Positions 1,866 through 29,069 of a stretch of 34,109 bases of DNA are shown piece after piece; positions within the stretch are counted from its first letter, which is position 1, and every line of letters begins with the position of its first letter. The stretch is from a virus (taxonomy: Duplodnaviria; Heunggongvirae; Uroviricota; Caudoviricetes), in the IMG/VR virus record IMGVR_UViG_2913167280_000005, positions 1 through 34,109 of that record; one strand, given 5' to 3'. The translations under genes were made by a program, and so were the position numbers. The notes beneath the pieces were generated by a model. It worked only from the letters and a program-made list of their open reading frames with translations, was not told the DNA's origin and did not search any database.

Positions 1866-1882
1866 ATTACCCTTTGGGTAAT
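1866..1882. promoter_or_regulatory. operator-like dyad ATTACCCTTTGGGTAAT (site G)
   Basis: Perfect 17-bp dyad read directly; lies in the intergenic region between the tail fibre start and the plus-strand 86-aa ORF. Confidence 0.35.
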
Positions 1883-1958
1883 TTGCACAACGTGCTGGAT
1901 AGGCTGCGAAACTTCTGATATATGTATATATATACAGTGCTCGCATGGAGAACACGAG

Positions 1959-2219
1959 ATGCAACGGCAGTATCATCACCCTCTGGAAGATGGATTCGCA
2001 GAACGCATACACACGCCGGGAGGCGTAAGATCCCTGATTGAAGAATCGCACCTGATGGACTTGCTGAGAGAGTTGCAAAAAGACGGGTACGACGTTAGCG
2101 GGGCAACGGCGGAACTTACCGCGCTTGTTAACTACGTCACAAGCTCACAAATTTCTATGAAAGATTTGCAGACACATCTGGACTACTGCGCCATGCAGCT
2201 ACAGCAGCAACTTAGATAG
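1959..2219 (+). CDS. hypothetical 86-aa protein encoded antisense to the late operon (moron-like)
   Basis: ORF with GGAGA 7 nt upstream of its ATG, preceded by an AT-rich tract (TATATGTATATATATACA) and followed by a GC hairpin at 2231-2246. No recognisable domain. Confidence 0.35.
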   Translation: MQRQYHHPLEDGFAERIHTPGGVRSLIEESHLMDLLRELQKDGYDVSGATAELTALVNYVTSSQISMKDLQTHLDYCAMQLQQQLR

Positions 2220-2230
2220 TAAGAATGGAA

Positions 2231-2250
2231 GGCCGCAGAAGCGGCCTTTG
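2231..2250. terminator. GC-rich hairpin (GGCCGC-AGAA-GCGGCC) with short T tract; possible bidirectional terminator
   Basis: Stem-loop read directly; followed by TTTG on the plus strand and by TTCCATTCTT on the minus strand. The U tracts are weak. Confidence 0.35.
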
Positions 2251-2261
2251 TGACATGTCAC
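2250..2261. repeat. 12-bp palindrome GTGACATGTCAC, copy 1 of 3
   Basis: Exact palindrome overlapping the stop codon of the 64-aa membrane-protein gene; the same motif recurs at 20545 and 22897. Confidence 0.45.
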
Positions 2262-2452
2262 AGAAGAGGAAGTTTGAACACGATCGCCGCCAGCACCACA
2301 AACGTTAGGAAGTAGACAGCTTTTGACGATGTTTCTCCTAGCAAGCCCTTATCAATAGCAAAGATTATCGCCCACAAATATGCGGTTCCGCAGGCAACAA
2401 CCACAGCAAACCAGAAGATAATCAGACCTAGCTTCAGTAAAATATCCATCAT
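2258..2452 (-). CDS. small membrane protein (64 aa, 2-3 predicted TM helices); virion/ejection-associated or holin-like
   Basis: Strongly hydrophobic sequence (LGLIIFWFAVVVACGTAYLWAIIFAI, AVYFLTFVVLAAIVF); start overlaps the stop of the upstream gene. Confidence 0.5.
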   Translation of the reverse strand: MMDILLKLGLIIFWFAVVVACGTAYLWAIIFAIDKGLLGETSSKAVYFLTFVVLAAIVFKLPLL

Positions 2453-5205
2453 TGCCCTACCGCCTTACCTAAATCCGGCGCACGTCTTGGCGCTGTATCA
2501 CCAGGCTCCCACCAACTGGTGGTGTTGAACTCCCGCTGGGCCCGGTCTCTCACCCTATCGTTGTAGCCAGGGTTTGCCATCTCCTGAAGCTGTTGCAGGA
2601 TCAGATGATTGGTCACCGCTTTAGCATACCAGAGGTTGGCGAACGGGGTGATCATGCGCGCCGTCTTCAGCGCATCGGCGCCGAATGACGTCTCTTCACC
2701 TTGTAGCGCCTTCTGTGGGTTGGTGATGAGGAGTTTAGTCAACTGTTCAGCGAAGCTCAGTACAGGGCCGCCCAGAGTGGCCGCAATACTGGAGCCGTAC
2801 TGCGTGTGGTCCTGGAACAGGAAATCGCCGTAGATGCCGAATGAACCACCTTTAAGCAGCGGCTGAATCCACGTCGTAGGCTTCGTCATATCAAGCGGGT
2901 CATTACCAGTAAGCAACGAGTTCATCTGGTTGGCAAACATGCCTGCCAGCGTTGTTCCAGCAATGTATGACGCAAGGAACTTGATACCGGGCACGCGGTC
3001 AAGATCTATTGTACGGTTAACCAACTGACGGAACCCGGCAAACGACGTGGTTTTGAATAGCATGAAGCTCTTCACCAGTTGTCCGGCATCATCACGGGCA
3101 TATGTATCCAGCCCGGTCGCCGTCGTGATGGCACTGGTCATTTCTCCGTGTGTGACACCCAGCAGTTTTTGAGCCGCTTCAGCACGGGCATTACGAACCA
3201 TGCGAGCAACAGTCTGTTCTGCCTCTGCATCGAACGCCTGTTTCATCCTGGTTCGACGTTCCTGTGGGATATCACCAAGAGCCGCCAAAGCGGTTTCACT
3301 CCCGGCCCTAACCTGCGCAATTCGATCAGCCATGATTGCGTGTATCGCTTCATCAGGTACGGCGTAAATCGCGTCCGGTGTCATTCCCATGTGGCCTGCT
3401 GTGGTCATTGGCCTGAGTTCTGCTGCCGCCATGATAGCCCAGTCCTCATTGCTCCAGCCTTTGCTGGCAAGAATGGTCTTGTCTGACCCCTTCACCTCAT
3501 CCAGCGTTTTAAAAGTGCGTGTCAGTTCGCCGATGTTCTTGTACATCAGCAGACCGAACGAAGCTTTGTTGGCGCGGTCCATTGCGATAAGACCGGACCA
3601 CTTCAGCGTCTTCTCAGCAAACCAGCCGGTGATGCCACGTGACAGGTCAAAGCCGCCCATCTTCGATACCACTGCGGCATGAGAATCCACCAGCAGGCCA
3701 AGCTCAGCATTAGCTCGCTTTGCGTCACCGCTGAACAGGTTTTTGATGGTGTTAGCAGAGAGACGCATACCGCCTCGCGAGAAGCCAAGAGCCTGAGCGT
3801 TGGCACGCATGATGGCCTGGTCACTGGTCGCCGTCAGAACGCTGGTACCGAGCATGGCGCTGGTCATCAGGTTACGCAGACCGCCGACGGCTGACGTGAA
3901 CACGCTTGATTCCTGCACGCCATTCAAACCGGCCATTGAGTTAAACATGCGCTCAACCATCGTTTTCTCGCTGTTCATCTTACCGACGTCTTTACCACCG
4001 GTGACTGCACGCTGATAAATCCTGTCGTTAATCAGCTTGAAGTTATTCGCCGCGTCTGGGCCAAAGGCCTTTACAGTGCCCAGGTCTCGAGACGATGACT
4101 GAAGGTGTGACATCATCACGCCGACAACCGGCTGTTCGGTGTAGCGTTCCATGTACGCGAAGTGCGACTGTGCATCCTTGAACGCCATCACCCTGCTCTG
4201 CGAACCACGATTTTTAATGCCACCTGTTCCCATGAATGCGCCGGGGTCCAACTTGTTCGCACCGTCTGTCGCCTTGGTTTCGTAAATGGCCTCCAGCGCC
4301 TGGCGGTACTCGATGTCATTCATCGGTGAGCCGTCGAGATTCACATACTGCGAGCGGTCTTGCGTGTTGTACACGTCGTCGACCCAGGCCTGTTTAGCAA
4401 ACTCAATCGGCGGCTGCCGTCCTGATAATCGAGCCTTGGCCTGCTCCGCTGCAGAAAGGCTGGCAAGCCATTCATCGCGGCCTGAATTACGGATAAGGTC
4501 AGCATCGTCGACATACGGCAGATTCCAGTTATCACGCTGCCCGATATCAAACCCGGCGTCGTTCATCTCCTGACGAGCCCGGCTGGTCACATCACCCCAG
4601 ACCTGAGCTATTTTCTTCGCCTGTGGGTTGCCCGTGTCTTCACCGTAAATCTCTTTGAGGATCTGCAACTGCCCGGACTTCGCCACGCGCTGATCGAACA
4701 GGCTGCGGAAGCGTTGCTCGCCGAGTGCCTTACTCTGCTCGAAAAACTTCTGCACTTCTGGCCCGGCCTTCAGTAGTTCGGCGCTTAGTTGGCGAGACCA
4801 GTCCTGATATGCGCCGGTGGCGAGTTCTTCCGCCGAGGTAACAGGAATATCAGTTCTGTCTGTTGTACGACGGCCGGAGAAAATAAGTTGCTGGAGGTTG
4901 GCTGGGGTTTGCTGCTCTGGCGGGATGGCGGCATCCAGCGTATCGGTGACTTTCGATATGGCAATCGCATTTTGCGCAAGGCGCTGGCGCTTCTTATACA
5001 CGTCATGCACCACGCGCTGGCGAACCAACTCGGCGGCATCCATATATGTCTGAGCGTCGGGGATACCAGTTTTGCCTTCTCGTGCATTGTTGCGGCTGAC
5101 CTGACGGACGGCTTCCTTGATGCGGTCCTCAATATTTTTCAACTCATCGGCCTTTGGCTTGCGCCCAAGCGTCTGCGCAATGGCTTCTACACATGCCTGT
5201 TTCAT
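2449..5205 (-). CDS. large internal virion/ejection protein (about 918 aa)
   Basis: Long ORF in the structural operon; ATG at 5205 overlaps the upstream stop (TAATG) with GAGGAA upstream (track start is a GTG at 5226). Function is from size and position in a T7-like gene order. Confidence 0.6.
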   Translation of the reverse strand: MKQACVEAIAQTLGRKPKADELKNIEDRIKEAVRQVSRNNAREGKTGIPDAQTYMDAAELVRQRVVHDVYKKRQRLAQNAIAISKVTDTLDAAIPPEQQTPANLQQLIFSGRRTTDRTDIPVTSAEELATGAYQDWSRQLSAELLKAGPEVQKFFEQSKALGEQRFRSLFDQRVAKSGQLQILKEIYGEDTGNPQAKKIAQVWGDVTSRARQEMNDAGFDIGQRDNWNLPYVDDADLIRNSGRDEWLASLSAAEQAKARLSGRQPPIEFAKQAWVDDVYNTQDRSQYVNLDGSPMNDIEYRQALEAIYETKATDGANKLDPGAFMGTGGIKNRGSQSRVMAFKDAQSHFAYMERYTEQPVVGVMMSHLQSSSRDLGTVKAFGPDAANNFKLINDRIYQRAVTGGKDVGKMNSEKTMVERMFNSMAGLNGVQESSVFTSAVGGLRNLMTSAMLGTSVLTATSDQAIMRANAQALGFSRGGMRLSANTIKNLFSGDAKRANAELGLLVDSHAAVVSKMGGFDLSRGITGWFAEKTLKWSGLIAMDRANKASFGLLMYKNIGELTRTFKTLDEVKGSDKTILASKGWSNEDWAIMAAAELRPMTTAGHMGMTPDAIYAVPDEAIHAIMADRIAQVRAGSETALAALGDIPQERRTRMKQAFDAEAEQTVARMVRNARAEAAQKLLGVTHGEMTSAITTATGLDTYARDDAGQLVKSFMLFKTTSFAGFRQLVNRTIDLDRVPGIKFLASYIAGTTLAGMFANQMNSLLTGNDPLDMTKPTTWIQPLLKGGSFGIYGDFLFQDHTQYGSSIAATLGGPVLSFAEQLTKLLITNPQKALQGEETSFGADALKTARMITPFANLWYAKAVTNHLILQQLQEMANPGYNDRVRDRAQREFNTTSWWEPGDTAPRRAPDLGKAVGQ

Positions 5206-7142
5206 TATGGATTCCTCAGGAAGCACGCCGCCGCAACGGAGTAAACTTTCGATTTTGCTTTTGCAGTCTGGATCTGCTCGTCAAAGTCAGCCAGAACATC
5301 GGATAACTTCATCTGCTGCCCGGTGTCAGGATGCGTTACGGTCAGATCAGGATTAGCTGTCGCCATGTCGCGCGCTGCCATCAATTCATAGTTGTTGTCA
5401 GAAATGGCCTGTCCACTGTCCGGATCAACGCTTACCTGTCCGGCATCTTCATCAACACGAGAAAATGCGCTTTCGCTGCGTGGAGCCTGCGCCTCCATGA
5501 CGGCATCACGCGGCGTTTCATAGTGAACGCCATTCTCCTGGAAAACCTGCTCCATTGCATGGTACTGATCGTTGGCTGACTCCAGCATGCCAGGACGCGC
5601 CGGGCCATCCAGCCCACGCGCCTGCATAACGATGTTAACCGGCTGGCCTTCTGACAACTGACGGGCTGCCTCATCCATGGCGGCCACATGGCTGTTAATA
5701 CTCTCGTTTGTACCATGCAGTACTGGTGCAGATTCGATGTCGTAATACAACCCCTCGTTCAGCGTGTGTGCCGCGTCAATGTCGCTGGGTTTGATTGGTG
5801 TTTCCGGAACCAGGCCGCGCATACTCTCAGGAATGATCCCCTGTTCCATACGTGATAAGTCGGCTTTTGCCTCGTAGAACTGGCCGCCTGGCTCATGCGG
5901 AGCCAGGGTGTCTCTGGCGTTTTGCAGACGGTCTCGCGCAACAGTCAGCTGATTGCTGATATCGATTAATTTCTCACGATTGGCTTCGTAGTAGCGCTTG
6001 TTGGCACCCGCTGAGCCGGTCGGCTGAGCATCACGAATTGCCTTTTCCTCGGCCTCCAGTCGCGCCACAGTTCGCTCACCATTGGCAATATCTGATTGCC
6101 ACACTTTCCTGTCACCGCGTGACATCAGTTTCCCGGCGCTGTCCTGTAGTTCTGCCATCCTGGAATCGAATGTTGCTGGTGGCTGCACTGCATCTGTAGG
6201 CGTTCCGATCTCAACAGTTGCTTGCTGCGTAGCATCGACAGGAGCAGCATCAGGTGCAACAATTCCATCAGGTGCGCTCTGCACCTCAGCCGCCGGGATA
6301 GGCGCTTCCACATCGACAGGGTTTGCTGTATCAGTGGCAACCGTGTCGGCACCATCAGCACCGCGCGCAGAAAGATGGTGAGCGCCACCGAACGCGCCGC
6401 CCAGTACCGCATCAATCATCACAGCCTGTCCATCCCATACGCGGTACTGCTTCGCCATATCGGAATAGCCTTTTTCTTCCAGCGTTTCTCCGACGGAAAA
6501 ACGGTTTATACCGCCGAATCCGACGTTGATCCCCACGCCTGAAGCGATACGCGTCAGCAGTGTTTTCCCAAGCGCGGCAGGAAGCGCCATACCCGCAGCG
6601 TTGAAGGTACTTTGCTGCGCTGCGAGATTACGCGCCGTGGACTCATCCACTCCCTTAGCTCTGAAATCCTGATAAGACTGCTCATAAGTAGAGCCGAATG
6701 CCGTTGACGCACCAATAACCGGGCCGCCAGCGATCGTTGCACCAATTGCAGGAACGAACTGGCCCAGACCATTTAACACTTCGGCGGCAGTTCCCTGGCT
6801 TGCCGGGTCTGGTTTGACGTATGCACGCGCACTCTTCAGCGAGTCACTCAGGCTGTCGTAGCTTTCATTGAGCTGCTTGTCAGCATCAGGGAACATCACG
6901 CGGAACATATTCACCGTCGGGGCTACAGCATCAGCCAGAGCAGGATCGCTGATCAGCCGCTTACTGAATCCCACAGCCGACTGCGCCAGCCCCGTAGCGC
7001 CCTCCGCAATGCCGCGCGGCAATGCAGACGCAGATCCCTGAAAGAATGTCGGGTCGTAGTCTTCTGGCCTGGCTGGGTTGGCCTGTGTCTTGTCATCAGT
7101 CCATGCCTGGCCTTCTGGTGCCAGCGAAAATACATCTGCCAT
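5205..7142 (-). CDS. internal virion/ejection protein (645 aa, Ala/Gly-rich segments)
   Basis: ATG at 7142 overlapping the upstream stop; composition and position typical of podovirus core proteins. Confidence 0.6.
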   Translation of the reverse strand: MADVFSLAPEGQAWTDDKTQANPARPEDYDPTFFQGSASALPRGIAEGATGLAQSAVGFSKRLISDPALADAVAPTVNMFRVMFPDADKQLNESYDSLSDSLKSARAYVKPDPASQGTAAEVLNGLGQFVPAIGATIAGGPVIGASTAFGSTYEQSYQDFRAKGVDESTARNLAAQQSTFNAAGMALPAALGKTLLTRIASGVGINVGFGGINRFSVGETLEEKGYSDMAKQYRVWDGQAVMIDAVLGGAFGGAHHLSARGADGADTVATDTANPVDVEAPIPAAEVQSAPDGIVAPDAAPVDATQQATVEIGTPTDAVQPPATFDSRMAELQDSAGKLMSRGDRKVWQSDIANGERTVARLEAEEKAIRDAQPTGSAGANKRYYEANREKLIDISNQLTVARDRLQNARDTLAPHEPGGQFYEAKADLSRMEQGIIPESMRGLVPETPIKPSDIDAAHTLNEGLYYDIESAPVLHGTNESINSHVAAMDEAARQLSEGQPVNIVMQARGLDGPARPGMLESANDQYHAMEQVFQENGVHYETPRDAVMEAQAPRSESAFSRVDEDAGQVSVDPDSGQAISDNNYELMAARDMATANPDLTVTHPDTGQQMKLSDVLADFDEQIQTAKAKSKVYSVAAACFLRNP

Positions 7143-19287: not shown

Positions 19288-19355
19288 AAACGTAACTCCG
19301 CACGCAATTAAATTATTACCAATTTAACCACATAAGGATTATTTTACGTAGTGCA

Positions 19356-19393
19356 TTGACATTTTATCGAGCAATTATTACCTTAAAGGTAAT
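19356..19393 (+). promoter_or_regulatory. candidate sigma70-type promoter (TTGACA, 17-bp spacer, TACCTT) overlapped by operator dyad ATTACCTTAAAGGTAAT (site A)
   Basis: TTGACA at 19356-19361; dyad at 19377-19393 overlapping the -10 position. Confidence 0.35.
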
Positions 19394-19399: not shown

Positions 19400-20156
19400 T
19401 TGCATGATTGATTTGGTGAAGGATGTTGCTATGTGACATTCAACTCACCAGATGAGCCGAATAATTCAGGTTATCGGCTCACAACATGAGAGTGCATTCC
19501 TGACTATCCCCATACGGTAAGCCGTTAAATCCAAATGGTGGAGTGTGCTCTCAGTTGTGAATAACAACCGTTGTATGGCACATGCAGCGATAGCGGTCCG
19601 GCGGGTTCCTTGTAGGGTTCCCTTTCCTAGCCGGGTAGCCGGAATGTGCAAGCCTGGCTCGCTAACGGCCTTAGGGCGATTCACCATCGTGGCGATACGG
19701 TGTGACACCTCGGAAGAGACGAGGATGCAATGATGAGAGCATTGGTCATGGAGCGGTGGAGAATGAATCTGAGCTTCTTGGCGGTTGCAGCGGATTCTTA
19801 CATGAAAACCTGTGCTTTCTTCATTGTGGCAATGCGGCTGTGCGCACGTGACGAGGCATTTCATTCCACGCTTGAAATGAAAAGTTATCTAATAGTTTAA
19901 CGTCGTCAGCCGTAGCCGGGCTGACAGGTGGAGGCACCACCGCCACAAATCAAATCACGCCTCAGGACCGTTATACCCGTAGTACCTGTAACGATAGCTT
20001 TAACTTGGCGGTGTCAGAAACAACCATCCCGAAGTCGCTGGCACCGCCCTTTTTACACCAGAACGTCATTGCGATGGCTTTCCGTTGTAAACCCGTAATG
20101 CCAAGGAAGGCAGACTCCCATGCTTCCAGCTCGCCCACTTCGGTGGGCATTTTTTT
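19400..20156 (+). ncRNA. long untranslated leader / candidate structured RNA ending in an intrinsic terminator
   Basis: About 750 nt with no convincing ORF on either strand; stable hairpins at 19452-19480 and 19904-19924; a long GGCGGTG...CACCGCC hairpin plus CTTTTT at 20008-20055; canonical terminator at 20133-20156. Confidence 0.3.
20133..20156 (+). terminator. intrinsic terminator (GCCCAC-TTCG-GTGGGC plus 7 T) abutting the ribosome-binding site of the downstream ORF
   Basis: Perfect 6-bp GC stem with a 4-nt loop and U tract; AAGGTGA follows immediately, with the ATG at 20169. Confidence 0.7.
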
Positions 20157-20544: not shown

Positions 20545-20556
20545 GTGACACGTCAC
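20545..20556. repeat. 12-bp palindrome GTGACACGTCAC, copy 2 of 3
   Basis: Begins 5 nt after the TAA stop of the 123-aa ORF. Confidence 0.45.
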
Positions 20557-22213: not shown

Positions 22214-22800
22214 TTCTCACCAGCCTCTCTGATGCGGCGGCGCGCGGATGCCATGCGGTCTGCAATGGTGACGGTGCCGGAAACCTCGAGGCGTTCTTTG
22301 AACGCCATAACATCGACGTGCTTGCCGATGAGCTCCAGATTCTTCACCTTGTCGGGCCATTTTATCTTTTTGAGGATGCCGACCAGTTCTTTCTCATCGC
22401 CGCGCCCCTCAAACATGTCTGCCAACTCGAATCCGGTAAGATACTGGCGCCAGACCCTCGGCCACTCCGAAACCGGTTTAATACTCATGTCATCGTTCAG
22501 AATGTCGATCACATCCATCTGGTCGATTTCCACCAGGCGAAGCAGAACATAATCAGCGCTGACGCGGGTGCGCTTGTTGCGCTCCTCCATGAGTTCAGCA
22601 ATCCGTTTCTGGATTCGCTCATCGCGCATCATGACGCTGGCTTTGACCGCCGCCGTATTAGGAGAAAATCCTGCGTCTATCGCCGCCTGAGACTGATTTT
22701 CAGGGCTCTTGATGTATGACTGGCAGTAAGCCTCCTGCATCGCTGTAAGCGGCTTAAATTGCGTTGATTTGCGTTTGTGTGGTTTTGGTTCCGCTGGCAT
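22210..22800 (-). CDS. terminase small subunit (about 196 aa)
   Basis: Directly upstream of and coupled to the large subunit; ATG at 22800 with GGTGG upstream (track start is a TTG at 22812). Confidence 0.75.
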   Translation of the reverse strand: MPAEPKPHKRKSTQFKPLTAMQEAYCQSYIKSPENQSQAAIDAGFSPNTAAVKASVMMRDERIQKRIAELMEERNKRTRVSADYVLLRLVEIDQMDVIDILNDDMSIKPVSEWPRVWRQYLTGFELADMFEGRGDEKELVGILKKIKWPDKVKNLELIGKHVDVMAFKERLEVSGTVTIADRMASARRRIREAGEK

Positions 22801-22802
22801 TG

Positions 22803-22837
22803 TTACCACCAAAGTAATTAATTACCGTTGTGGTAAT
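22803..22837. promoter_or_regulatory. two adjacent operator-like dyads (GTTACCACCAAAGTAAT and ATTACCGTTGTGGTAAT; sites B0 and B) just upstream of the terminase small-subunit start
   Basis: Read directly; centres 19 bp apart; B0 is a 4/5 half-site match. Confidence 0.4.
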
Positions 22838-22845: not shown

Positions 22846-22873
22846 GCAAAACAAAGCCGCCATAGTCGGCGGC
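22846..22873 (-). terminator. intrinsic terminator (GCCGCC-6 nt-GGCGGC plus TTTGTTTTG) immediately upstream of the late operon
   Basis: Hairpin and U tract on the minus strand, between the small early genes and the terminase start. Confidence 0.6.
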
Positions 22874-22896
22874 CGTTGCTGTTATTTATATTCATC

Positions 22897-22908
22897 GTGA
22901 CATGTCAC
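22897..22908. repeat. 12-bp palindrome GTGACATGTCAC, copy 3 of 3
   Basis: Directly abuts the stop codon (22910-22912) of the 56-aa gene, upstream of the late-operon terminator. Confidence 0.45.
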
Positions 22909-23081: not shown

Positions 23082-23420
23082 TCACACCTCCAGTTTTACG
23101 TTATGCCAACCCATTGTAACCCAGCACGACGAATCACCATCGAACGGACACAACTCAACCGGCAGCATATCGCCGCATTTCCCGCAGCGGTTCGCGCCGA
23201 TTGATTTGATACGACCACGAACGCGAGCATCATCCTGGCGGATCAGCATCGCGATGTATTCGCTCATCTCGTACGGCGCGCGCCCAGGGCGACGGGCGGC
23301 GCAATTTCGCGCCAGCATATCCACTTCCTGTTCGTCGAGATACAGTTCCAGTTTGCGTTCACCGGCGGCGGTTTGCCGGGCGCGCTGCGCTGCTTTGCGC
23401 TCTGCTGCTGATTTAGTCAT
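23082..23420 (-). CDS. basic protein with C-terminal zinc ribbon (112 aa); candidate late-gene regulator or antiterminator by position
   Basis: C-terminal CGKCG...C...C motif and Arg-rich N-terminus; last sizeable gene before the terminator and late operon. The functional call is positional inference only. Confidence 0.55.
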   Translation of the reverse strand: MTKSAAERKAAQRARQTAAGERKLELYLDEQEVDMLARNCAARRPGRAPYEMSEYIAMLIRQDDARVRGRIKSIGANRCGKCGDMLPVELCPFDGDSSCWVTMGWHNVKLEV

Positions 23421-24299: not shown

Positions 24300-24302
24300 G
24301 GC

Positions 24303-24491
24303 CTAACCCCTAACTTCAATATTGACATTAATGTTAATTACGCCGACATCGACGCTCATGTCGGTTGAGTCAGCAGTAATCATGTATTCAGCAGTAACCA
24401 TTGCCAGACGCTTTAGGGATTCCTCCATGTCGTTGCCTGTTAATTCATTCACAAGCGCAACCACTGGCTGCATATGCTCTCCCATTTTCAT
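24303..24491 (-). CDS. small hypothetical protein (about 62 aa)
   Basis: ATG at 24491 overlaps the HNH gene stop (ATGA). Confidence 0.45.
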   Translation of the reverse strand: MKMGEHMQPVVALVNELTGNDMEESLKRLAMVTAEYMITADSTDMSVDVGVININVNIEVRG

Positions 24492-25015
24492 CACTCACCT
24501 CCCTGATATTGCTCAAACCAGAAAACCACAGGCTTTTCGATAACCTCCACAATGCCGAACCGCTCAGCGGTACGGAAGTTCACACTGTATGCTCTGGCTC
24601 GCTCGGCCTGCTTAGAGATTTCTTTCCGCATCATTTCCACACTGAATGCAGCCTTGAACAGATTGCACGGCGCGCAGGATGGAAACAGATTATCGATGGC
24701 GTGCAGCTCCGGATGCATTACCTTACCAGTGCTGCGCGCGACGACGGACGAGCCGCTACCGGCCGGAGCCCGAACGAACTCAAAATCCCGACGAACCGGT
24801 TCAACGTGATCGGCGTGCCAGCCTTTTTCTGGCAACTTACAACCGCAATAAGCGCAGCGACCACCAAATTTCATACGCAATTCAGCGCGCTGCGCTTTGG
24901 TGATTTTGTTCTTCGGTTTTGAATAACGATCATCAGGCAGACCCACCCTCGGAAGAATGGTGGTTTGCTCCGGCAGTTCTATCATCATCCCTTTACGATT
25001 CGCGACCTGAGACAT
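24491..25015 (-). CDS. HNH endonuclease
   Basis: CAYCG...WHADHVEP...N...CAPCN motif block; ATG at 25015 (track start is a GTG at 25018). Confidence 0.8.
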   Translation of the reverse strand: MSQVANRKGMMIELPEQTTILPRVGLPDDRYSKPKNKITKAQRAELRMKFGGRCAYCGCKLPEKGWHADHVEPVRRDFEFVRAPAGSGSSVVARSTGKVMHPELHAIDNLFPSCAPCNLFKAAFSVEMMRKEISKQAERARAYSVNFRTAERFGIVEVIEKPVVFWFEQYQGGE

Positions 25016-25359
25016 CACTCACCTCCCTGAATCTGTAGGGTGATGCCAGCAGCGGAACAGGCATCCTGAATATCAGGAAGGTTCACTACCAGCGGGCAAT
25101 CAATATCGCCGTCAGGGTAAAACGGCTCTGGAAGTACGATTACTTGCTGCTCTGCGGAATCGGCGCGCTGCTCAATAAGAGACTTCAGCCCCGCATTCTC
25201 CGCCGCCAGCGCATCGCGTTCAGCACATGCAGTCCGGGTTGCAACCAGCGAACAATCAAACCGAGTAGCCAGTTCATTCAGCAGTTGAGCCGCCTTCTCG
25301 TTCTCGTACTTCGCCACAACCCGAGCAGTTTCAATCAGTTGTTCATTGTTCCATTCCAT
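25015..25359 (-). CDS. hypothetical protein (about 114 aa)
   Basis: ATG at 25359 with GGGGGTAAAG upstream (track start is a TTG at 25371). Confidence 0.5.
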   Translation of the reverse strand: MEWNNEQLIETARVVAKYENEKAAQLLNELATRFDCSLVATRTACAERDALAAENAGLKSLIEQRADSAEQQVIVLPEPFYPDGDIDCPLVVNLPDIQDACSAAGITLQIQGGE

Positions 25360-25420
25360 CTTTACCCCCAATTACCCGTATAAGTTATTGATTACGCTGA
25401 TAACAAAAAGGATCGTCGTT

Positions 25421-25765
25421 TCAGAACTCTTCGACCTTCCAGCCTCCACCCGCTTTCTTTGGCTTCGGCGTTACTGCGATGATGCGGAACGGATACTGAT
25501 CGGCTGCCACTTTGGTTTTCACCCTGGCATCATCAGTCCACATGCCCTTCGCCTCGTGCAGTTCCATCTCACCGCTGGCGAGCATCACTGCAAAGTCAGG
25601 CGTGTAGAACGTGTTATCCGCCAGCCGCAGCTTGATGCCTTCAAACCGGTACCAGGCAACTTCCCCTGCACGCTTACGCAGTTCCAACATCTGGCAGTAG
25701 GCCGCCTCGGTCTGGTTCATCTGCCCGGTCTTCAGTCGGCCAAGCGCCTGTAGTCTCTTCTGCAT
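25421..25765 (-). CDS. small PD-(D/E)xK-type nuclease-like protein (about 114 aa)
   Basis: YTPDF...ELHEAKG resembles a D...ExK catalytic motif; ATG at 25765 with AAGAGG upstream (track start is a GTG at 25795). Confidence 0.5.
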   Translation of the reverse strand: MQKRLQALGRLKTGQMNQTEAAYCQMLELRKRAGEVAWYRFEGIKLRLADNTFYTPDFAVMLASGEMELHEAKGMWTDDARVKTKVAADQYPFRIIAVTPKPKKAGGGWKVEEF

Positions 25766-25831
25766 CGCCTTACCTCTTGGGTAATTAAAATCCACTTACG
25801 GATTAATATCAATAGTTATGCGCATTTATTT

Positions 25832-25846
25832 TTACCTGACAGGTAA
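25832..25846. promoter_or_regulatory. operator-like dyad TTACCTGACAGGTAA (site C)
   Basis: Perfect 15-bp palindrome in the intergenic region upstream of the nuclease-like gene. Confidence 0.4.
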
Positions 25847-25898
25847 CAATTCAGGCGTAAAAAAATGCGCTGCTGCGCTGCCTGTTAACGACTATTGC

Positions 25899-26573
25899 CT
25901 ATGCGCCGTCGCTTCGAACCATGATGATGTGCCGCGCCAGCTTCTGCTGCCACTGGTATTGATTAAGCGACACCTCTTCGCATTTCCAGAAGTCGATGAA
26001 TGACGCCAACTCTGTTTTCCTGACACCTCGCTCAACCGGCGTACCCCATTCTTTCGACTGCTCTGCAAAGTCTGGATCTGGCCTCCAGTCTGAATGCATC
26101 AAAAAGTTATCCACAGAGTTTTTCGCGCGCGCGTTATGAGTGGGGTTTATATGGGGTTTATATTCTTCCTCTTCCTCTTCCTCTGGTAACGTTTTTTGTA
26201 ACGCTGGTTGCGTTACCTTTTGCGTTTCACGCTTTCTAAGTTCTGCCACCCTTCTGTTTGTAAGTGCTCGTTTTTTCGATGATTCTCCGTTATGCCGCTC
26301 AAAGTTAGGCAGGATGAGCTTTCCTTCCTGATAGGCAAGCCAGCCTACAGAGATCAGTGCGTCGGCGAATCCTGTAATAAAAGCGATCCTGTCGAACACT
26401 CCCTTTGTAACGCTGCCAGCGTTACCGTCTATCGTTTGTTGATCGGCCCATGCCCATATGCGAACCAACTTTCCAAGAACAGCATCCGGGTCAATATTCA
26501 ACAGTTCTGCTATCTGGAAAATCTCGGGCTTGTCAGGGGTGATTACTTCAACCTTAATCCAACTACTTGCCAT
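25899..26573 (-). CDS. replication protein (DnaT-like / replisome-organiser-type N-terminal domain, 224 aa)
   Basis: N-terminal region recalled as typical of prophage DnaT-like replication proteins; acidic EEEEEEE linker; position in the replication module. Confidence 0.55.
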   Translation of the reverse strand: MASSWIKVEVITPDKPEIFQIAELLNIDPDAVLGKLVRIWAWADQQTIDGNAGSVTKGVFDRIAFITGFADALISVGWLAYQEGKLILPNFERHNGESSKKRALTNRRVAELRKRETQKVTQPALQKTLPEEEEEEEYKPHINPTHNARAKNSVDNFLMHSDWRPDPDFAEQSKEWGTPVERGVRKTELASFIDFWKCEEVSLNQYQWQQKLARHIIMVRSDGA

Positions 26574-27624
26574 AGTTCACCCCCATATAAGCCCGGATGA
26601 ATTCAGCCTCAGCCTGTGCGTTTATGGCGTTACCGTAACCCTTAAGGCGGCCTGTTCGGTTGCGGCCTGCCAGTGCTCGTAATGAGGACTTTCCGTGTCC
26701 CAGGCTTTTGGCAAACCTTGCAACCAACGGGAATGTGCCGGATTCAACTGGACGCCATTGCCCATCTCGACAAAAGAGCCAGTCCGCATCTCGCCAAAAA
26801 CCGTTAACCTCAAGGGGCCCGCTGTGTATGCCTGTCTCGGCAACTGATCCAGTCGCTCCTTTCCATCCCGCTGCGCTGTCATGCCAGATGTGTCCTTCCA
26901 GTCGCGAGTCGTTGGCGTTACCCATCCGGCTAGTAGTGCTGTGCCCGGTAGTTTCAGGCAGACTTTCGGTGACCCGTCCTGATTTCTCCCGCTGTAGCAA
27001 TGAGTCGAACCGGTTGAATCGTTCGCCATTGGTGTTTGCCATCCCGTTAACCGCGCCGCTCCGGAGACATGTTGCAGGCCGCGCTTCGTTTCCGGCTGCG
27101 GGTTTGTGTTCGCCACTGGCGTGGGCCACCCAGTAGGCCCGCTCTCTGATGTGCGGCGCACCGACGCCCGCTGCCGCAAACGGCACAAGCCCGAAGGCGT
27201 ATCCCAATCCTTCCAGGTCAGCTTGTACAAGGTCGAACCATGGGTTTGCGTTACCAGCTGCAACCTGTTCGCCAAAGACATGCTGAGGTCCGCACTCGCT
27301 GATGAGGTGGAAGAAGGCTGGCCATAAGTGCCGCTCGTCATCAAACCCATCTCCTTTACCTGCCGCGCTGAAAGGCTGGCACGGGGGGGAGCCTGTCCAT
27401 ACTGGTTTATCGTCAGGCCATCCGGCGAGGCGGAGGGAGTGAGACCAGACACCGATCCCGGCAAAAAAGTGGTGCTGAGTGAATTCTCGCAGGTCGTCAG
27501 GTGTGACATCTTCAATGCTCCTTTCGTCAACTTCACCGGGCGCTATGTGTCCGCCGGCGATTAGGTTACGCAGCCACTGAGCTGCAAACGGGTCAATTTC
27601 GTTGTAGTACGCGGCTGGGATCAT
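26563..27624 (-). CDS. DNA cytosine-5 methyltransferase (Dcm-type)
   Basis: C5-MTase motifs FAGIGV (motif I) and PPCQPFSAAGK (motif IV, catalytic PCQ); ATG at 27624 overlaps the upstream stop (track ORF extends to 27696). Confidence 0.85.
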   Translation of the reverse strand: MIPAAYYNEIDPFAAQWLRNLIAGGHIAPGEVDERSIEDVTPDDLREFTQHHFFAGIGVWSHSLRLAGWPDDKPVWTGSPPCQPFSAAGKGDGFDDERHLWPAFFHLISECGPQHVFGEQVAAGNANPWFDLVQADLEGLGYAFGLVPFAAAGVGAPHIRERAYWVAHASGEHKPAAGNEARPATCLRSGAVNGMANTNGERFNRFDSLLQREKSGRVTESLPETTGHSTTSRMGNANDSRLEGHIWHDSAAGWKGATGSVAETGIHSGPLEVNGFWRDADWLFCRDGQWRPVESGTFPLVARFAKSLGHGKSSLRALAGRNRTGRLKGYGNAINAQAEAEFIRAYMGVNYGK

Positions 27625-27815
27625 GCTGCTTCTCCCGCTGCTTTCATCAGAGCTTTGATTTCTGCCTGCCGACGGCGGTTTGTTTCCATCGTGCATTCGA
27701 CGCAGTGTCCGTTATATGTCCAGCGTTCGCTTTGATGTCCGTGTTTGCAGACCTTGCCAGTGTAGTAGCGCTTCAACCCGCTTTTAGCGGCATCATTGCG
27801 CGTAATAATCTCCAT
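27621..27815 (-). CDS. small zinc-ribbon protein (64 aa) directly downstream of the Cro-like gene
   Basis: CKHGH...HCVEC motif; AGAGG upstream of the ATG. Confidence 0.55.
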   Translation of the reverse strand: MEIITRNDAAKSGLKRYYTGKVCKHGHQSERWTYNGHCVECTMETNRRRQAEIKALMKAAGEAA

Positions 27816-27893
27816 CTTCGTAACCTCTTTGGATTGCGGTTACGGTGATTTTCAATCAGGAGCAAAAAAAGATCAACCGTATACGGATATTTA

Positions 27894-27908
27894 TTACCTG
27901 AGAGGTGT
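27894..27908. promoter_or_regulatory. operator-like half-degenerate dyad TTACCTGAGAGGTGT (site D) in a module near-identical to the one at 29032-29069
   Basis: TCAACC..ATACGGATATTTATTACCT matches TCAACC...ATACGGATAATTATTACCT at 29032-29059 with one indel, but has no TTGACA -35. Confidence 0.3.
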
Positions 27909-27962
27909 TAATAGAAGTGATTAGGCCGCCTGACGGCGGCACTGAGGTGGTTCAGAGGGTGT

Positions 27963-28193
27963 TCAGGAGTAGAAGAATACGGCGAGCTCTGGTTTTGTTC
28001 TTACCCAGCCACGGGATTTGCATGCTTTAAAAAGCCCATTCATCAATGCCTTACCAGGCATTTTACGCTTCCCGGTCAAGTGCGTCTGGATGTAGTGAGC
28101 GGTGGTTTCTGCCTCATCTGCAAACGCTTTCCTTTCGTCAGGCGTGAGCTGGAGCCAGTGTTTTTTGAAATCGAATGGGATGTTGTCACTCAT
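27963..28193 (-). CDS. Cro-like early regulator (76 aa), assigned by position only
   Basis: Transcribed divergently from the repressor gene with operator dyads between them; no clear HTH recognised. Confidence 0.45.
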   Translation of the reverse strand: MSDNIPFDFKKHWLQLTPDERKAFADEAETTAHYIQTHLTGKRKMPGKALMNGLFKACKSRGWVRTKPELAVFFYS

Positions 28194-28260
28194 TTCTATT
28201 GCCTGATATTAATTTCAGATAACCAATATTCACCCATAAGGTAACAAAAAGCAAGGTTCG

Positions 28261-28292
28261 TTACCTGTACGGTGCATTTACCTGTGGGGTAA
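28261..28292. promoter_or_regulatory. rightward operator region: two dyads (TTACCTGTACGGTGC and TTACCTGTGGGGTAA) between the Cro-like and repressor genes
   Basis: Read directly; centres 17 bp apart in the 153-bp divergent intergenic region. Confidence 0.5.
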
Positions 28293-28346
28293 TATCGATT
28301 TTAATTGGCTCATAAATGATTCACTTACGAGACTAATCACCAGAGC

Positions 28347-28934
28347 ATGAAAAGTATCCACGATATTCGCCGCAAGAACCTCATCGATTTAATCGAACGC
28401 GATTTTAACGGTGTGCAAACGCGCCTGGCGGAGCGCCTGGATACTCAGCCTAATCTGGTAAACCGCTGGGCTCGTGGCACTAAAATCATCGGCGACCAGT
28501 CTGCACGTAAAATTGATATGGCAGCCAACAAGCCGACAAACTGGCTCGACACAGATCATGAACTTGTTTCTGTATCGGAATTCCAGCCGGTTGGCCCGAG
28601 TGATATCGGATTGCTGGCAGCTGAGAACCTGGCGCGCTGGATGCGTGAAAGTCGCGACCTGTCTACCCAGGGTAAGCTATCACGGGCATCAGGTGTGGCG
28701 CAGTCAACGCTGAACAGAATGCTCAACAATGAAGCCAGCATCACCCTTGCCACCCTGGAAGCCATCGCTGCCCCGTTCGGTCGCCGCGGTTATGAGTTGC
28801 TCATCCATCCGAAAGACCCCGCAGGAATCAGATACGACAGAACGAAGTACGCATCGTTACCTGAAAGCGAGAAAAGTAAGATTGAAAGTTTCATTGATTT
28901 TGTGATTACTCAGCACGCAAACAACCAGCTATAA
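28347..28934 (+). CDS. prophage repressor with two HTH (XRE-type) motifs, no S24 peptidase domain
   Basis: GVQTRLAERLDTQPNLVNRWARG and LSRASGVAQSTLNRMLNNE look like HTH segments; divergent from the Cro-like gene and followed by a strong terminator. Confidence 0.7.
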   Translation: MKSIHDIRRKNLIDLIERDFNGVQTRLAERLDTQPNLVNRWARGTKIIGDQSARKIDMAANKPTNWLDTDHELVSVSEFQPVGPSDIGLLAAENLARWMRESRDLSTQGKLSRASGVAQSTLNRMLNNEASITLATLEAIAAPFGRRGYELLIHPKDPAGIRYDRTKYASLPESEKSKIESFIDFVITQHANNQL

Positions 28935-28944
28935 CATACTGAAT

Positions 28945-28968
28945 TCTCAGACATAAGCCGCCATTGAG
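28945..28968 (+). terminator. intrinsic terminator (AAGCCGC-6 nt-GCGGCTT plus T tract) after the repressor gene
   Basis: Hairpin and TTTTTT read directly, 11 nt after the stop codon. Confidence 0.75.
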
Positions 28969-28991
28969 CGGCTTTTTTATCGCCCAAATCA

Positions 28992-29069
28992 TTACCCAAT
29001 GGGTAATTTTTTATCATCATATCTATTGACATCAACCCACATACGGATAATTATTACCTCAACGGTAAC
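28992..29069 (+). promoter_or_regulatory. leftward-operon promoter/operator: dyad ATTACCCAATGGGTAAT, -35 TTGACA (29026-29031), dyad ATTACCTCAACGGTAAC (29053-29069)
   Basis: Two dyads flank a consensus -35 hexamer; the second covers the -10/+1 region; the first ORF of the plus-strand operon follows at 29088. Confidence 0.5.

What the first reader, a model, noticed from the sequence alone, without database searches (positions are those of the whole stretch)
1866..29069. One 17-bp dyad, ATTACC-N5-GGTAAT, at 10 intergenic sites spanning both immunity and late regions
Copies at 1866-1882, 19377-19393, 22803-22817 (4/5 half-site), 22821-22837, 25832-25846, 27894-27908 (degenerate), 28261-28275 (degenerate), 28278-28292, 28992-29006 and 29053-29069. 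Scanning every TTACC in the window gave no matching dyad inside any coding region. Sites between the repressor and Cro-like genes and flanking the leftward -35 behave like classical operators. Unusually, further copies sit upstream of the terminase genes, the portal-proximal gene and accessory cassette, the tail fibre and antisense 86-aa ORF, and two early-right genes. This suggests one DNA-binding protein (repressor or Cro-like) touches most transcription units, reminiscent of multi-site repressor systems such as mycobacteriophage stoperators, though these sites are symmetric.
Basis: partly seen in the sequence, partly recalled or inferred. Interest (0 to 1): 0.7.

Follow-up and report, generated by a model that had tools for sequence, protein, structure and literature searches.

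The report
Epsilon15-type prophage repressor operator set
The repeated 17-bp palindrome is real and is most likely the binding site of the master repressor of an epsilon15-like prophage; the same sites at the same gene junctions are already annotated as predicted repressor-binding sites in phage epsilon15, so this is a new example of a known system, not a new kind of regulation.

Summary
The dyad ATTACC-N5-GGTAAT is real. The core TTACC-N5-GGTAA occurs 8 times exactly. All 8 lie in the 8.4% of the window that is intergenic (p = 2.5e-9). The background is about 0.3 per 34 kb in E. coli DNA.

The window is an epsilon15-like (Uetakevirus) prophage. The epsilon15 GenBank record already annotates the same 17-mer as predicted "repressor" binding sites upstream of terS, of gp3/portal and of the tailspike, beside the repressor gene and upstream of the resolvase gene.

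The 195-aa repressor is a homologue of SPC32H Rep (PDB 5D50). The "antisense 86-aa ORF" is its antirepressor Ant, and it carries a LexA-type box.

The dyad is the most over-represented palindrome in six relatives, and 69 IMG/VR loci carry the sites flanking rep. It sits at orthologous positions throughout.

One feature I did not find described in the papers I could read. At three window promoters a distal and a proximal site lie exactly 62 bp apart and bracket the promoter; a fourth, degenerate pair is 60 bp apart. The -10 hexamer overlaps the proximal site. This fits a tetrameric Rep clamping the promoter.

Verdict: observation confirmed, interpretation supported, new member of a known kind, low to moderate interest.

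The parts
28347..28934 (+). Rep, the prophage master repressor (195 aa). It has an N-terminal DNA-binding domain, a middle dimerisation domain (where the Pfam HTH_3 hit falls) and a C-terminal tetramerisation / Ant-binding domain.
   Evidence: phmmer against PDB: 5D50_A 'Repressor' (SPC32H), E = 9.7e-45 over residues 1-190. Pfam HTH_3 at residues 100-146. It is 45-70% identical to the Reps of six Uetakeviruses, and the N-terminal stretch NLVNRW is invariant. The domain scheme is taken from PMC9986798.
27963..28193 (-). gp39-like 76-aa Cro-like protein, transcribed divergently from rep
   Evidence: phrog_35 'transcriptional repressor', E = 2.4e-9. It is 74-87% identical across the genus. There is no Pfam hit.
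28229..28245 (.). Operator in the rep/gp39 intergenic region, nearest gp39 (core TCACC-N5-GGTAA, 1 mismatch). It lies in the spacer and -10 region of the conserved leftward TTGxTT promoter.
   Evidence: The site is conserved at the same column in 7 genomes.
28260..28276 (.). Middle operator of the rep/gp39 region (TTACC-N5-GGTGC, 2 mismatches)
   Evidence: Its degeneracy is conserved in the window/BUCT554/ZX5/Tyrion clade, and the core is exact in the epsilon15 clade. It lies 17 bp from the next site.
28277..28293 (.). Operator nearest rep (exact core). It overlaps a candidate rep promoter, -35 TTTACC / -10 TTTAAT.
   Evidence: An exact site is present at this position in 69 of 69 IMG/VR loci. 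The promoter assignment is inferred.
28955..28974 (+). Rho-independent terminator after rep. It insulates rep from the early-left promoter cassette.
   Evidence: Terminator scan. The hairpin is conserved in the alignment.
28991..29007 (.). Distal operator of the early-left promoter cassette (exact 17-mer, followed by an invariant T6 run)
   Evidence: It lies 62 bp centre to centre from 29053-29069.
29026..29054 (+). Early-left promoter, TTGACA-17-AATTAT
   Evidence: 10 of 12 consensus match. The -35 block CTATTGAC and the -10 ATTAT are invariant in 7 genomes.
29053..29069 (.). Proximal operator of the early-left cassette. Its first two bases are the last two bases of the -10 hexamer.
27893..27909 (.). 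Distal, degenerate operator (2 mismatches) of the promoter that follows the gp39 terminator and precedes the 64-aa gene and the methylase/replication genes
   Evidence: The right half GGTAAT is invariant and the left half is degenerate in 6 genomes. It lies upstream of the invariant -35 TTGATC (27876-27871).
27833..27849 (.). Weak proximal site of the same cassette (3 mismatches). It overlaps the -10 GAAAAT (27853-27848) and lies 60 bp from the distal site.
   Evidence: BUCT554 has a one-mismatch site at this position. This is the weakest part of the set.
25831..25847 (.). Distal operator of the cassette upstream of the DUF1064 / Holliday-junction-resolvase gene
   Evidence: It is preceded by a conserved terminator-like GCGC hairpin plus T7 run.
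25769..25785 (.). It overlaps the -10 TTTAAT (25789-25784), and its spacer carries the Shine-Dalgarno sequence of the gene that starts at 25765.
   Evidence: The 62-bp spacing is conserved in all 7 genomes. -35 TTGATA at 25812-25807.
22821..22837 (.). Operator upstream of terS (exact 17-mer). It overlaps a conserved extended -10, TGnTAsTAT (22844-22836, minus strand).
   Evidence: It corresponds to the epsilon15 'repressor' site at 12-27.
22802..22818 (.). Second terS site (1 mismatch), 19 bp away. It covers the terS ribosome-binding site, just upstream of the ATG at 22800.
   Evidence: A degenerate partner is conserved in six of the seven genomes.
22855..22874 (-). Terminator that ends the early-right operon, immediately upstream of the terS promoter/operator
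   Evidence: conserved in the alignment.
19377..19393 (.). Operator upstream of gp3/portal (exact 17-mer)
   Evidence: It corresponds to the epsilon15 'repressor' site at 2931-2947.
19315..19331 (.). Proximal half-site (perfect ATTACC only), exactly 62 bp from 19377-19393. It lies in the 100% conserved leader TTAAATTGGTAATAATTTAA.
   Evidence: The distance is also 62 bp in epsilon15. Its function is inferred.
1866..1882 (.). Single operator between the divergent ant and tailspike promoters
   Evidence: It corresponds to the epsilon15 'repressor' site at 19895-19911. It lies upstream of both -35 elements and does not overlap either.
1959..2219 (+).
   Evidence: 77% identical to SPC32H Ant; phrog_450 and phrog_1760 'anti-repressor'.
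1922..1937 (+). LexA-type box over the ant promoter. Here it reads ATGT-N8-ACAG, one arm off the consensus.
   Evidence: In the alignment with 4 relatives, all four read CTGT-N8-ACAG.

Best explanation
The dyads are the operators of Rep, the master repressor of an epsilon15-like (Uetakevirus) prophage.

Rep is a homologue of the SPC32H repressor, which is reported to bind palindromic DNA as a tetramer. It is inactivated by the small antirepressor Ant, not by cleavage (the last point is from my memory of Kim & Ryu 2013).

The genome is cut by terminators into many short transcription units, and each has its own promoter guarded by Rep sites:
- At the early-left, resolvase, post-gp39 and terS promoters, the last two bases of the -10 hexamer are the first two bases of a site, so bound Rep occludes RNA polymerase.
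- At three promoters in the window a second site lies exactly 62 bp upstream (about six helical turns). One tetramer, which has two DNA-binding pairs, can then hold both sites and clamp the promoter between them. A fourth, degenerate pair is 60 bp apart.
- Three graded sites between rep and the divergent Cro-like gene form the switch proper.
- The single site between ant and tailspike lies upstream of both promoters. How it acts there is not clear.

Shown here: the sites, their enrichment, their positions, their conservation and the protein homologies. Inferred: that Rep binds them, the promoter assignments, and the clamp.
For: Enrichment and position in the window:
- The dyad is strongly enriched and exclusively intergenic.
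- The window is about 77% identical to epsilon15, Tyrion, SPN1S and SPC32H structural genes.

Existing annotation and homology:
- The epsilon15 GenBank record annotates seven protein_bind 'repressor; lysogeny' features, and their sequences are this dyad. They lie upstream of terS, gp3/portal, tailspike/gp19 and RuvC, and beside rep.
- Rep matches PDB 5D50 at E = 1e-44. Ant is 77% identical to SPC32H Ant.
- Papers describe SPC32H Rep as an N-terminal DNA-binding domain plus a tetramerisation domain, binding palindromic sites as a tetramer and released by Ant.
- Overexpressing the ZX5 homologue (70% identical to the window's Rep) abolishes free phage and cuts holin and endolysin mRNA by more than 99.9%.

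Conservation:
- The dyad is the top palindrome in all 6 relatives, with 8-11 exact copies each at orthologous junctions.
- In 69 distinct IMG/VR loci every one keeps the site upstream of rep and the downstream pair.

Promoter overlap and spacing:
- Phylogenetic footprints show terminator, distal site, invariant -35, 17-bp spacer, then a -10 overlapping the proximal site.
- A 62-bp offset is the only spacing that stands out: mean best match 6.56 of 10 against 3.35 +/- 0.44, and 130 instances in the 69 loci.
- The half-sites are invariant while the 5-bp spacer varies freely across 197 distinct copies. That is the pattern of protein recognition, not of an RNA stem.
Against: - No binding experiment was accessible to me. 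The epsilon15 features are bioinformatic predictions, and the three primary papers (Kropinski 2007; Kim & Ryu 2013; Kim et al. 2016) are not in the library.
- Rep's N-terminal domain and the Cro-like gp39 are both conserved across the genus, and the operator is invariant. Covariation therefore cannot say which protein reads the dyad.
- At the ant/tailspike junction the full dyad lies tens of bp upstream of both predicted promoters, where simple occlusion does not work. At gp3/portal it abuts or lies upstream of the candidate promoter, depending on which -10 is used.
- Consensus sigma-70 hits are not more frequent than in shuffles. Promoter calls therefore rest on conservation only.
- A 62-bp loop is very tight.
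Confidence: 0.85

Rival explanations
1. The Cro-like gp39 (76 aa) reads the same dyads, either together with Rep as in the lambda CI/Cro arrangement, or as the main binder at some sites.
For: gp39 matches a phage 'transcriptional repressor' family (phrog_35, E = 2.4e-9). It has a helix-turn-helix-like stretch (TTSHYIQTHLTG) and is 74-87% conserved, as invariant as the operator itself. It is transcribed divergently from rep across three graded sites, which is the classical layout for shared operators.
Against: There is no direct evidence. The epsilon15 annotators assigned the sites to the repressor. Rep is the protein reported to bind palindromic DNA. This reading does not exclude the best explanation, because both proteins may bind.
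Confidence: 0.35
2. At the late-gene junctions (gp3/portal at 19377 and ant/tailspike at 1866) the dyad is an upstream activator site, or a site where Rep blocks an activator, rather than a direct occluding operator.
For: The ant/tailspike dyad is centred well upstream of both predicted promoters, and the gp3/portal dyad lies upstream of every candidate -10. In several relatives the gp3 and tailspike promoter regions share the motif TCATAT-N11-GGTAAT followed by a -10-like hexamer with a poor -35; in the window only the tailspike copy keeps it. That suggests dependence on a factor. The window encodes other regulators, a PerC-like activator and a phrog_536 regulator.
Against: The sequence is the same as at sites that overlap -10 elements. 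At gp3 a perfect half-site sits exactly 62 bp downstream, as in the repression cassettes. Rep overexpression in ZX5 shuts late lysis genes down.
Confidence: 0.15
3. The dyads act as RNA hairpins (terminators or processing sites) rather than as protein-binding DNA.
For: The site at 28991-29007 is followed by an invariant T6 run and is picked up by the terminator scan.
Against: Only that one copy has a T run. The stems are 6 bp with just two G-C pairs. The half-sites never vary and show no compensatory changes in 197 distinct copies, while the 'loop' varies freely. Several copies lie upstream of transcription starts. Rfam finds nothing.
Confidence: 0.03
4. The pattern is a chance or compositional feature, or the site of a host transcription factor.
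For: Two-mismatch matches are no more frequent than in E. coli DNA.
Against: There are eight exact cores against about 0.3 expected, and all are intergenic. They sit at orthologous positions in phages of Salmonella, Escherichia, Enterobacter and Klebsiella and in prophages of Citrobacter, Erwinia and Buttiauxella. The motif therefore travels with the phage and its Rep gene, not with a host.
Confidence: 0.02

Closest known systems
Phage epsilon15 predicted repressor-binding sites (GenBank AY150271.2; Kropinski et al. 2007)
   Same: The 17-bp dyad ATTACC-N5-GGTAAT is identical. The junctions are the same: upstream of terS, of gp3/portal, of tailspike/gp19 and of the resolvase gene, and beside rep. 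The gene order is the same.
   Different: The window is a different phage, about 77% identical at the nucleotide level, with a Rep only 46% identical. Its spacers are less A+T-rich. It has two sites rather than three downstream of rep. The epsilon15 record leaves four exact cores unannotated: 24704, 33341, 33358 and 35969.
SPC32H Rep / Ant / LexA switch (PDB 5D50, 5D4Z; Kim & Ryu 2013; Kim et al. 2016)
   Same: Rep is a homologue (E = 1e-44). Ant is 77% identical. A LexA-type box lies over the ant promoter. SPC32H carries the same operator motif at 10 exact sites.
   Different: The window's LexA box has one arm off the consensus (ATGT instead of CTGT). I could not read which operators were tested experimentally.
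Phage P1 C1 repressor with operators dispersed over the genome (own knowledge)
   Same: One repressor directly controls many separate transcription units through many scattered operators.
   Different: P1 operators are asymmetric 17-mers, and C1 is unrelated. No homology was tested here.
Mycobacteriophage L5/L1 gp71 stoperators
   Same: There are many copies of one repressor site spread through early and late regions.
   Different: Stoperators are asymmetric, orientation-dependent and act on elongating polymerase within operons (PMC1934351 abstract, for asymmetry and multiplicity; the rest is own knowledge). Here the sites are symmetric, and at five of the seven clusters in the window a site overlaps the predicted core promoter.
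Streptomyces phage phiC31 repressor and its 17-bp conserved inverted repeats (own knowledge)
   Same: It has symmetric 17-bp repeats at many intergenic sites, bound by one repressor.
   Different: The protein, the motif and the host are unrelated. It was not tested here.
Loop-forming tetrameric repressors (LacI, lambda CI, pLS20 Rco with TetDloop)
   Same: Paired operators bracket a promoter, and the repressor is a tetramer with two DNA-binding units. Rep's C-terminal domain is reported to share the TetDloop fold with Rco, which loops 75 bp.
   Different: The 62-bp fixed spacing is used at several promoters of one genome. Looping by Rep has not been shown.

Membership tests
Epsilon15/SPC32H-type (Uetakevirus) Rep-operator immunity system | A repressor homologous to SPC32H Rep (N-terminal DNA-binding domain, middle domain, C-terminal tetramerisation domain) | tested here: met
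   phmmer against PDB: 5D50_A at E = 9.7e-45 over residues 1-190, and 5D4Z over residues 91-191. Alignment with six genus members.
Epsilon15/SPC32H-type (Uetakevirus) Rep-operator immunity system | The operator is the 17-bp dyad ATTACC-N5-GGTAAT | tested here: met
   The sequences under the epsilon15 'repressor' features are this dyad. It is the top dyad in the window and in 6 relatives.
Epsilon15/SPC32H-type (Uetakevirus) Rep-operator immunity system | Sites lie at the same gene junctions as in epsilon15 (terS, gp3/portal, ant/tailspike, rep flanks, resolvase) | tested here: met
   Site maps of 7 genomes and alignments of each junction.
Epsilon15/SPC32H-type (Uetakevirus) Rep-operator immunity system | A small antirepressor Ant is encoded divergently from the tailspike gene | tested here: met
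   77% identity to SPC32H Ant, E = 2e-50.
Epsilon15/SPC32H-type (Uetakevirus) Rep-operator immunity system | A LexA box lies over the ant promoter (SOS control of Ant) | tested here: inconclusive
   The box is present at the conserved position but reads ATGT-N8-ACAG. Four relatives read CTGT-N8-ACAG.
Epsilon15/SPC32H-type (Uetakevirus) Rep-operator immunity system | Rep physically binds the dyad | not testable with these tools
   This needs EMSA, footprinting or ChIP. The primary papers are not held in the library.
Mycobacteriophage stoperators | An asymmetric site whose orientation follows the direction of transcription | tested here: not met
   The site is a perfect dyad.
Mycobacteriophage stoperators | Sites lie inside transcribed operons, away from promoters, and act on elongation | tested here: not met
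   At five of the seven clusters in the window a site overlaps or directly abuts a conserved -35 or -10 element. The gp3 and ant/tailspike sites lie upstream of promoters.
Rho-independent terminator hairpins | A G+C-rich stem followed by a U tract, with stem pairing kept by compensatory changes | tested here: not met
   Only 28991-29007 has a T run. The stems have 2 G-C pairs out of 6, and the half-sites are invariant in 197 copies.
Lambda-type tripartite divergent operator (OR-like switch) | Three graded operator copies lie between divergent repressor and cro-like genes and overlap both promoters | tested here: inconclusive
   Three sites with 0, 2 and 1 mismatches, spaced 17 and 31 bp apart, are conserved in 7 genomes. 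The promoter positions are inferred only.

The most novel reading that the evidence does not exclude
Rep works as a fixed-geometry promoter clamp. One tetramer holds a distal and a proximal operator exactly 62 bp apart, with the whole promoter inside the micro-loop. This terminator-insulated cassette is reused at several promoters: early-left, resolvase, post-gp39 and, with a half-site, gp3/portal. Together with the terS, lysis and int sites seen in relatives, Rep would then gate every transcription unit directly. On that reading the phage needs no dedicated late activator, and the order of lytic gene expression is set by the hierarchy of operator affinities as Ant titrates Rep. I did not find this geometry described in the papers I could read. 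One of them states that Rep's repression mechanism is not extensively characterised.
Probability: 0.3. Interest if true: 0.45.

Novelty: new member of a known kind. Interest (0 to 1): 0.22.

Why it matters
The finding correctly identifies the regulatory wiring of a prophage from sequence alone. The system itself, however, is already annotated in phage epsilon15 and has been studied structurally in SPC32H.

What it adds:
- It is one more, diverged, member of the family. It lacks a complete tailspike gene (truncated next to an IS element) and has an off-consensus LexA box.
- It gives a genus-wide view of the operators. The half-site is invariant across phages of at least four host genera, although their repressors are only about 45% identical.
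- It shows a strictly conserved 62-bp pairing of operators around promoters. That gives a concrete, testable model for how the tetrameric Rep represses.

The operators also make a compact, portable set of repressible promoter cassettes that might be useful as genetic parts.

Tried and rejected
- **Primary literature.** Kropinski 2007, Kim & Ryu 2013 and Kim et al. 2016 are not held under any identifier. A search for my recalled consensus string found nothing. I relied on the GenBank features and on secondary descriptions.
- **Covariation to decide between Rep and gp39.** The operator is invariant and both proteins are conserved in all seven genomes. The IMG/VR scan returned only close relatives, because its patterns were the invariant peptides. 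The test is uninformative.
- **Finding the host.** A genome-contig scan with the conserved early-left cassette returned 7 related prophages (Citrobacter, Pseudescherichia, Pseudocitrobacter, Erwinia, Buttiauxella). None is the source of the window; the best segments were 73-91% identical. I used 100 kb of E. coli K-12 as a proxy background instead.
- **Consensus promoter scan.** Hits are no more frequent than in shuffles. Promoters were therefore called only where hexamers are conserved in the alignments.
- **RNA explanations.** There are no Rfam or tRNA hits.
- **Counting degenerate copies.** Two-mismatch matches are at background level. I kept only those at orthologous positions.
- **A 62-bp partner for the ant/tailspike and terS sites.** None was found.
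Full report
**1. Observation**

The exact 17-mer ATTACC-N5-GGTAAT occurs four times in the window, at 1866, 19377, 22821 and 28991. It occurs in none of 100 dinucleotide-preserving shuffles. The 15-bp core TTACC-N5-GGTAA is exact at eight places: 1867, 19378, 22822, 25770, 25832, 28278, 28992 and 29054.

I counted every 5-mer dyad with a spacer of 0-10 bp, without prior assumptions. This dyad ranks first with 8 copies. The next unrelated dyads have 3.

I set gene starts by comparison with relatives. All eight exact cores then fall in the 8.4% of the window that is intergenic (binomial p = 2.5e-9).

As a real-DNA control, 100 kb of E. coli K-12 chromosome holds one exact core, inside the yacL coding sequence. 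It also holds four one-mismatch and 55 two-mismatch matches.

- The exact copies are therefore about 25-fold enriched.
- Two-mismatch copies are not enriched at all: 24 in the window against 17-20 per 34 kb in E. coli.

**2. What the window is**

The structural genes are about 77% identical to Salmonella phage epsilon15, Enterobacter phage Tyrion, SPN1S/SPC32H, Klebsiella phage ST11-OXA245phi3.2 and other members of the genus Uetakevirus. The immunity region is 75% identical to Enterobacter phage BUCT554. No E. coli genome holds it at more than about 80% identity.

The window runs, in reverse orientation relative to the epsilon15 record, from the tailspike gene to the early-left operon. It does not include the lysis genes or the integrase gene.

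**3. The sites are already annotated in epsilon15**

The epsilon15 GenBank record AY150271.2 carries seven protein_bind features labelled "repressor; lysogeny". Their sequences are this dyad. Their positions are:

- upstream of terS (12-27);
- upstream of gp3/portal (2931-2947);
- between gp19 and the tailspike gene (19895-19911);
- three between gp37 and the repressor gene (32479, 32554 and 32616);
- one upstream of the RuvC-type resolvase gene (35906).

Epsilon15 has four more exact cores that its record does not annotate: 24704 (upstream of the lysis cassette), 33341 and 33358 (between rep and gp39), and 35969.

**4. The proteins**

The 195-aa protein (28347-28934) matches the SPC32H repressor, PDB 5D50, at E = 9.7e-45 over residues 1-190.

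Published descriptions that I could read say the following about SPC32H Rep:
- It has an N-terminal DNA-binding domain, a middle dimerisation domain and a C-terminal tetramerisation domain that also binds the antirepressor Ant.
- It binds palindromic DNA as a tetramer, with each DNA-binding pair formed by subunits of different dimers.
- Its repression mechanism "has not been extensively characterized".

The Pfam HTH_3 hit in the window's protein falls on residues 100-146, which is the middle domain. The N-terminal domain carries its own helix-turn-helix, with NLVNRW invariant across the genus.

A LexA-type box lies over its promoter.

The 76-aa protein made divergently from rep matches a phage "transcriptional repressor" family (phrog_35). 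It is 74-87% conserved.

In phage ZX5, whose Rep is 70% identical to the window's, overexpressing Rep abolished free phage. It also cut holin and endolysin mRNA by more than 99.9%.

**5. Conservation**

The dyad is the most frequent palindrome in each of six complete Uetakevirus genomes, with 8-11 exact copies each. It sits at orthologous junctions in all of them.

A scan of IMG/VR found 368 contigs that encode a Rep relative. Of the 80 loci kept, 69 distinct ones carry full flanks. Every one of these has the exact site upstream of rep, its one-mismatch partner 48 bp away, and the pair downstream of rep.

A scan of species-representative genomes with the conserved early-left cassette found related prophages in Citrobacter, Pseudescherichia, Pseudocitrobacter, Erwinia and Buttiauxella. 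None of them is the source of the window.

Across 197 distinct copies the half-sites never vary, while the five central bases vary freely. The consensus is aTTACCy-N3-rGGTAAt. This is the signature of sequence-specific protein recognition, not of an RNA stem.

**6. Anatomy**

Alignments of each junction show a repeated cassette. In order it contains:
- a rho-independent terminator;
- a distal operator;
- about 18 bp;
- an invariant -35 element (CTATTGAC or CTATTGAT);
- a 17-bp spacer;
- a -10 hexamer whose last two bases are the first two bases of the proximal operator.

The cassette occurs at these promoters:

| Promoter | Elements in the window |
|---|---|
| Early-left | sites 28991-29007 and 29053-29069; TTGACA-17-AATTAT at 29026-29054 |
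| Resolvase gene | sites 25831-25847 and 25769-25785; TTGATA-17-TTTAAT |
| After the gp39 terminator (degenerate form) | sites 27893-27909 and 27833-27849; TTGATC-17-GAAAAT |

Upstream of terS, a conserved extended -10 (TGnTAsTAT) overlaps the dyad at 22821-22837 in the same way. A second, one-mismatch site 19 bp away covers the ribosome-binding site.

Between rep and gp39, three sites with 0, 2 and 1 mismatches are spaced 17 and 31 bp apart. The site next to gp39 lies in the spacer and -10 region of a conserved leftward TTGxTT promoter. The exact site overlaps a candidate rep promoter. Both promoter positions are inferred.

**7. The 62-bp rule**

The distal and proximal sites of the early-left and resolvase cassettes are exactly 62 bp apart, centre to centre, in all seven genomes.

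I took the 66 exact sites of the seven genomes and asked which offset between 12 and 120 bp carries a second good match. Only 62 bp stands out:
- The mean best match is 6.56 of 10, against 3.35 +/- 0.44 for other offsets.
- 42% of the sites have at least 7 of 10 matches at that offset.

In the 69 IMG/VR loci the spacing of 62 bp occurs 130 times.

The gp3/portal dyad (19377-19393) has a perfect ATTACC half-site centred exactly 62 bp downstream (19315-19331). This half-site lies inside a 100% conserved leader. The same holds in epsilon15. The post-gp39 pair is 60 bp apart.

Sixty-two bp is close to six helical turns, so both sites face the same side of the helix. A Rep tetramer has two DNA-binding pairs. 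Its middle-domain pairs are reported to lie about 100 Å apart. The simplest reading is that one tetramer holds both sites and clamps the promoter between them. This is an inference. Such a loop would be very tight.

**8. What remains unclear**

- The dyad between ant and tailspike (1866-1882) lies upstream of both divergent promoters. It has no 62-bp partner.
- In several relatives the gp3 and tailspike promoter regions share the motif TCATAT-N11-GGTAAT followed by a -10-like hexamer, with a weak -35. In the window only the tailspike copy keeps it. They may need an activator. The dyad there may work by looping, by blocking an activator, or in some other way.
- Sequence cannot decide whether gp39 shares the operators. 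Both regulators and the operator are invariant across the genus.
- I could not read the three primary papers. The statement that Rep binds these particular 17-mers therefore rests on the epsilon15 annotation, on homology and on secondary descriptions.

**9. Comparison with known systems**

This is a member of the epsilon15/SPC32H Rep-Ant-LexA immunity system. The repressor, the antirepressor, the operator sequence and the operator positions all match. Only the LexA box is off consensus.

It works like other "one repressor, many scattered operators" phages, namely P1 C1, phiC31 and the mycobacteriophage stoperators. It is not a stoperator system, because the sites are symmetric and, at five of the seven clusters in the window, a site overlaps the predicted core promoter. 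The paired sites resemble loop-forming tetrameric repressors such as LacI and pLS20 Rco.

**10. Verdict**

- The finding is a new member of a known kind.
- The 62-bp promoter-clamp geometry, and the invariance of the operator across repressors that are only about 45% identical, are modest additions that can be tested.
- Interest is low to moderate.

Noticed in passing
window 2250-2261, 20545-20556, 22897-22908: A second perfect palindrome, GTGACATGTCAC (GTGACACGTCAC at 20545), occurs at three positionally conserved places in most of the seven genomes: all three in the window, epsilon15, SPC32H and ZX5; the terL and gp18 sites in Tyrion, whose record ends inside the terS copy; variant cores in BUCT554 and PAT1. 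The places are at or just after the stop codon of the last early-right gene (before the terS terminator), in the convergent gap after terL, and at the stop codon of the last structural gene, gp18 (before the terminator shared with ant). It is not annotated in the epsilon15 record. It always lies at the 3' end of a transcription unit and at a border between conserved and variable modules. Its function is unknown. Candidates are a site for a second DNA-binding protein, a control of termination, or a recombination boundary.
   Followed up: partly
window 1-1136 and 1331-1804: The window starts with an IS3-family transposase pair (HTH_Tnp_1, then HTH_21 + rve). Only the first 144 codons of the tailspike gene are present; they are 78% identical to the N-terminus of the 901-aa BUCT554 tailspike. 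The prophage therefore appears to lack a functional tailspike gene.
   Followed up: partly
window 1922-1937: The LexA-type box over the ant promoter reads ATGT-N8-ACAG, where four relatives read CTGT-N8-ACAG. From memory, a single-base change in this box makes Ant constitutive in SPC32N. Here it may mean weakened SOS control in a prophage that is decaying.
   Followed up: no
window 19300-19335 (minus strand leader of gp3): The stretch GGTTAAATTGGTAATAATTTAATTG is 100% conserved in all seven genomes. It contains the inverted repeat TTAAATT...AATTTAA around a GGTAAT half-site. In relatives the preceding TCATAT and this GGTAAT resemble the tailspike promoter region (TCATAT-N11-GGTAAT). This may be a shared late-promoter or leader element.
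   Followed up: partly
window about 1783-1800 (tailspike leader): A G+C-rich block, GCGCGCCGGGCGC, is invariant in five genomes. It lies between the tailspike promoter and the start codon and could form a hairpin in the leader.
   Followed up: no
window 28347-28934 and relatives L001-L006: The operator half-site is identical in phages of Salmonella, Escherichia and Enterobacter, although their Reps are only 45-70% identical overall. The conservation is concentrated in the N-terminal domain. Immunity specificity in this genus may therefore lie in the Rep-Ant pairing rather than in operator recognition, and cross-immunity between these phages is predicted. The window's Rep groups with ZX5, Tyrion and BUCT554 (65-70% identical), while its Ant is 77% identical to that of SPC32H, whose Rep is only 45% identical.
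   Followed up: no
relatives only: L001 26882 and 24704; L002 26960 and 24782; L004 28568 and 26408; L005 8026; L006 10746 and 8586: Outside the part of the genome covered by the window, relatives keep two further sites. One is a conserved one-mismatch site (TTACCyTAAAGGTAT) just upstream of the integrase gene. The other lies upstream of the lysis cassette. Rep sites therefore appear to guard those units as well.
   Followed up: no
window 25769-25785 and 22802-22818: The proximal operators of the resolvase gene and of terS carry the gene's Shine-Dalgarno sequence inside or next to the variable 5-bp spacer (GAGAGG, GGTGG). Each start codon follows within 4-5 bp, so these mRNAs would have very short leaders.
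   Followed up: no
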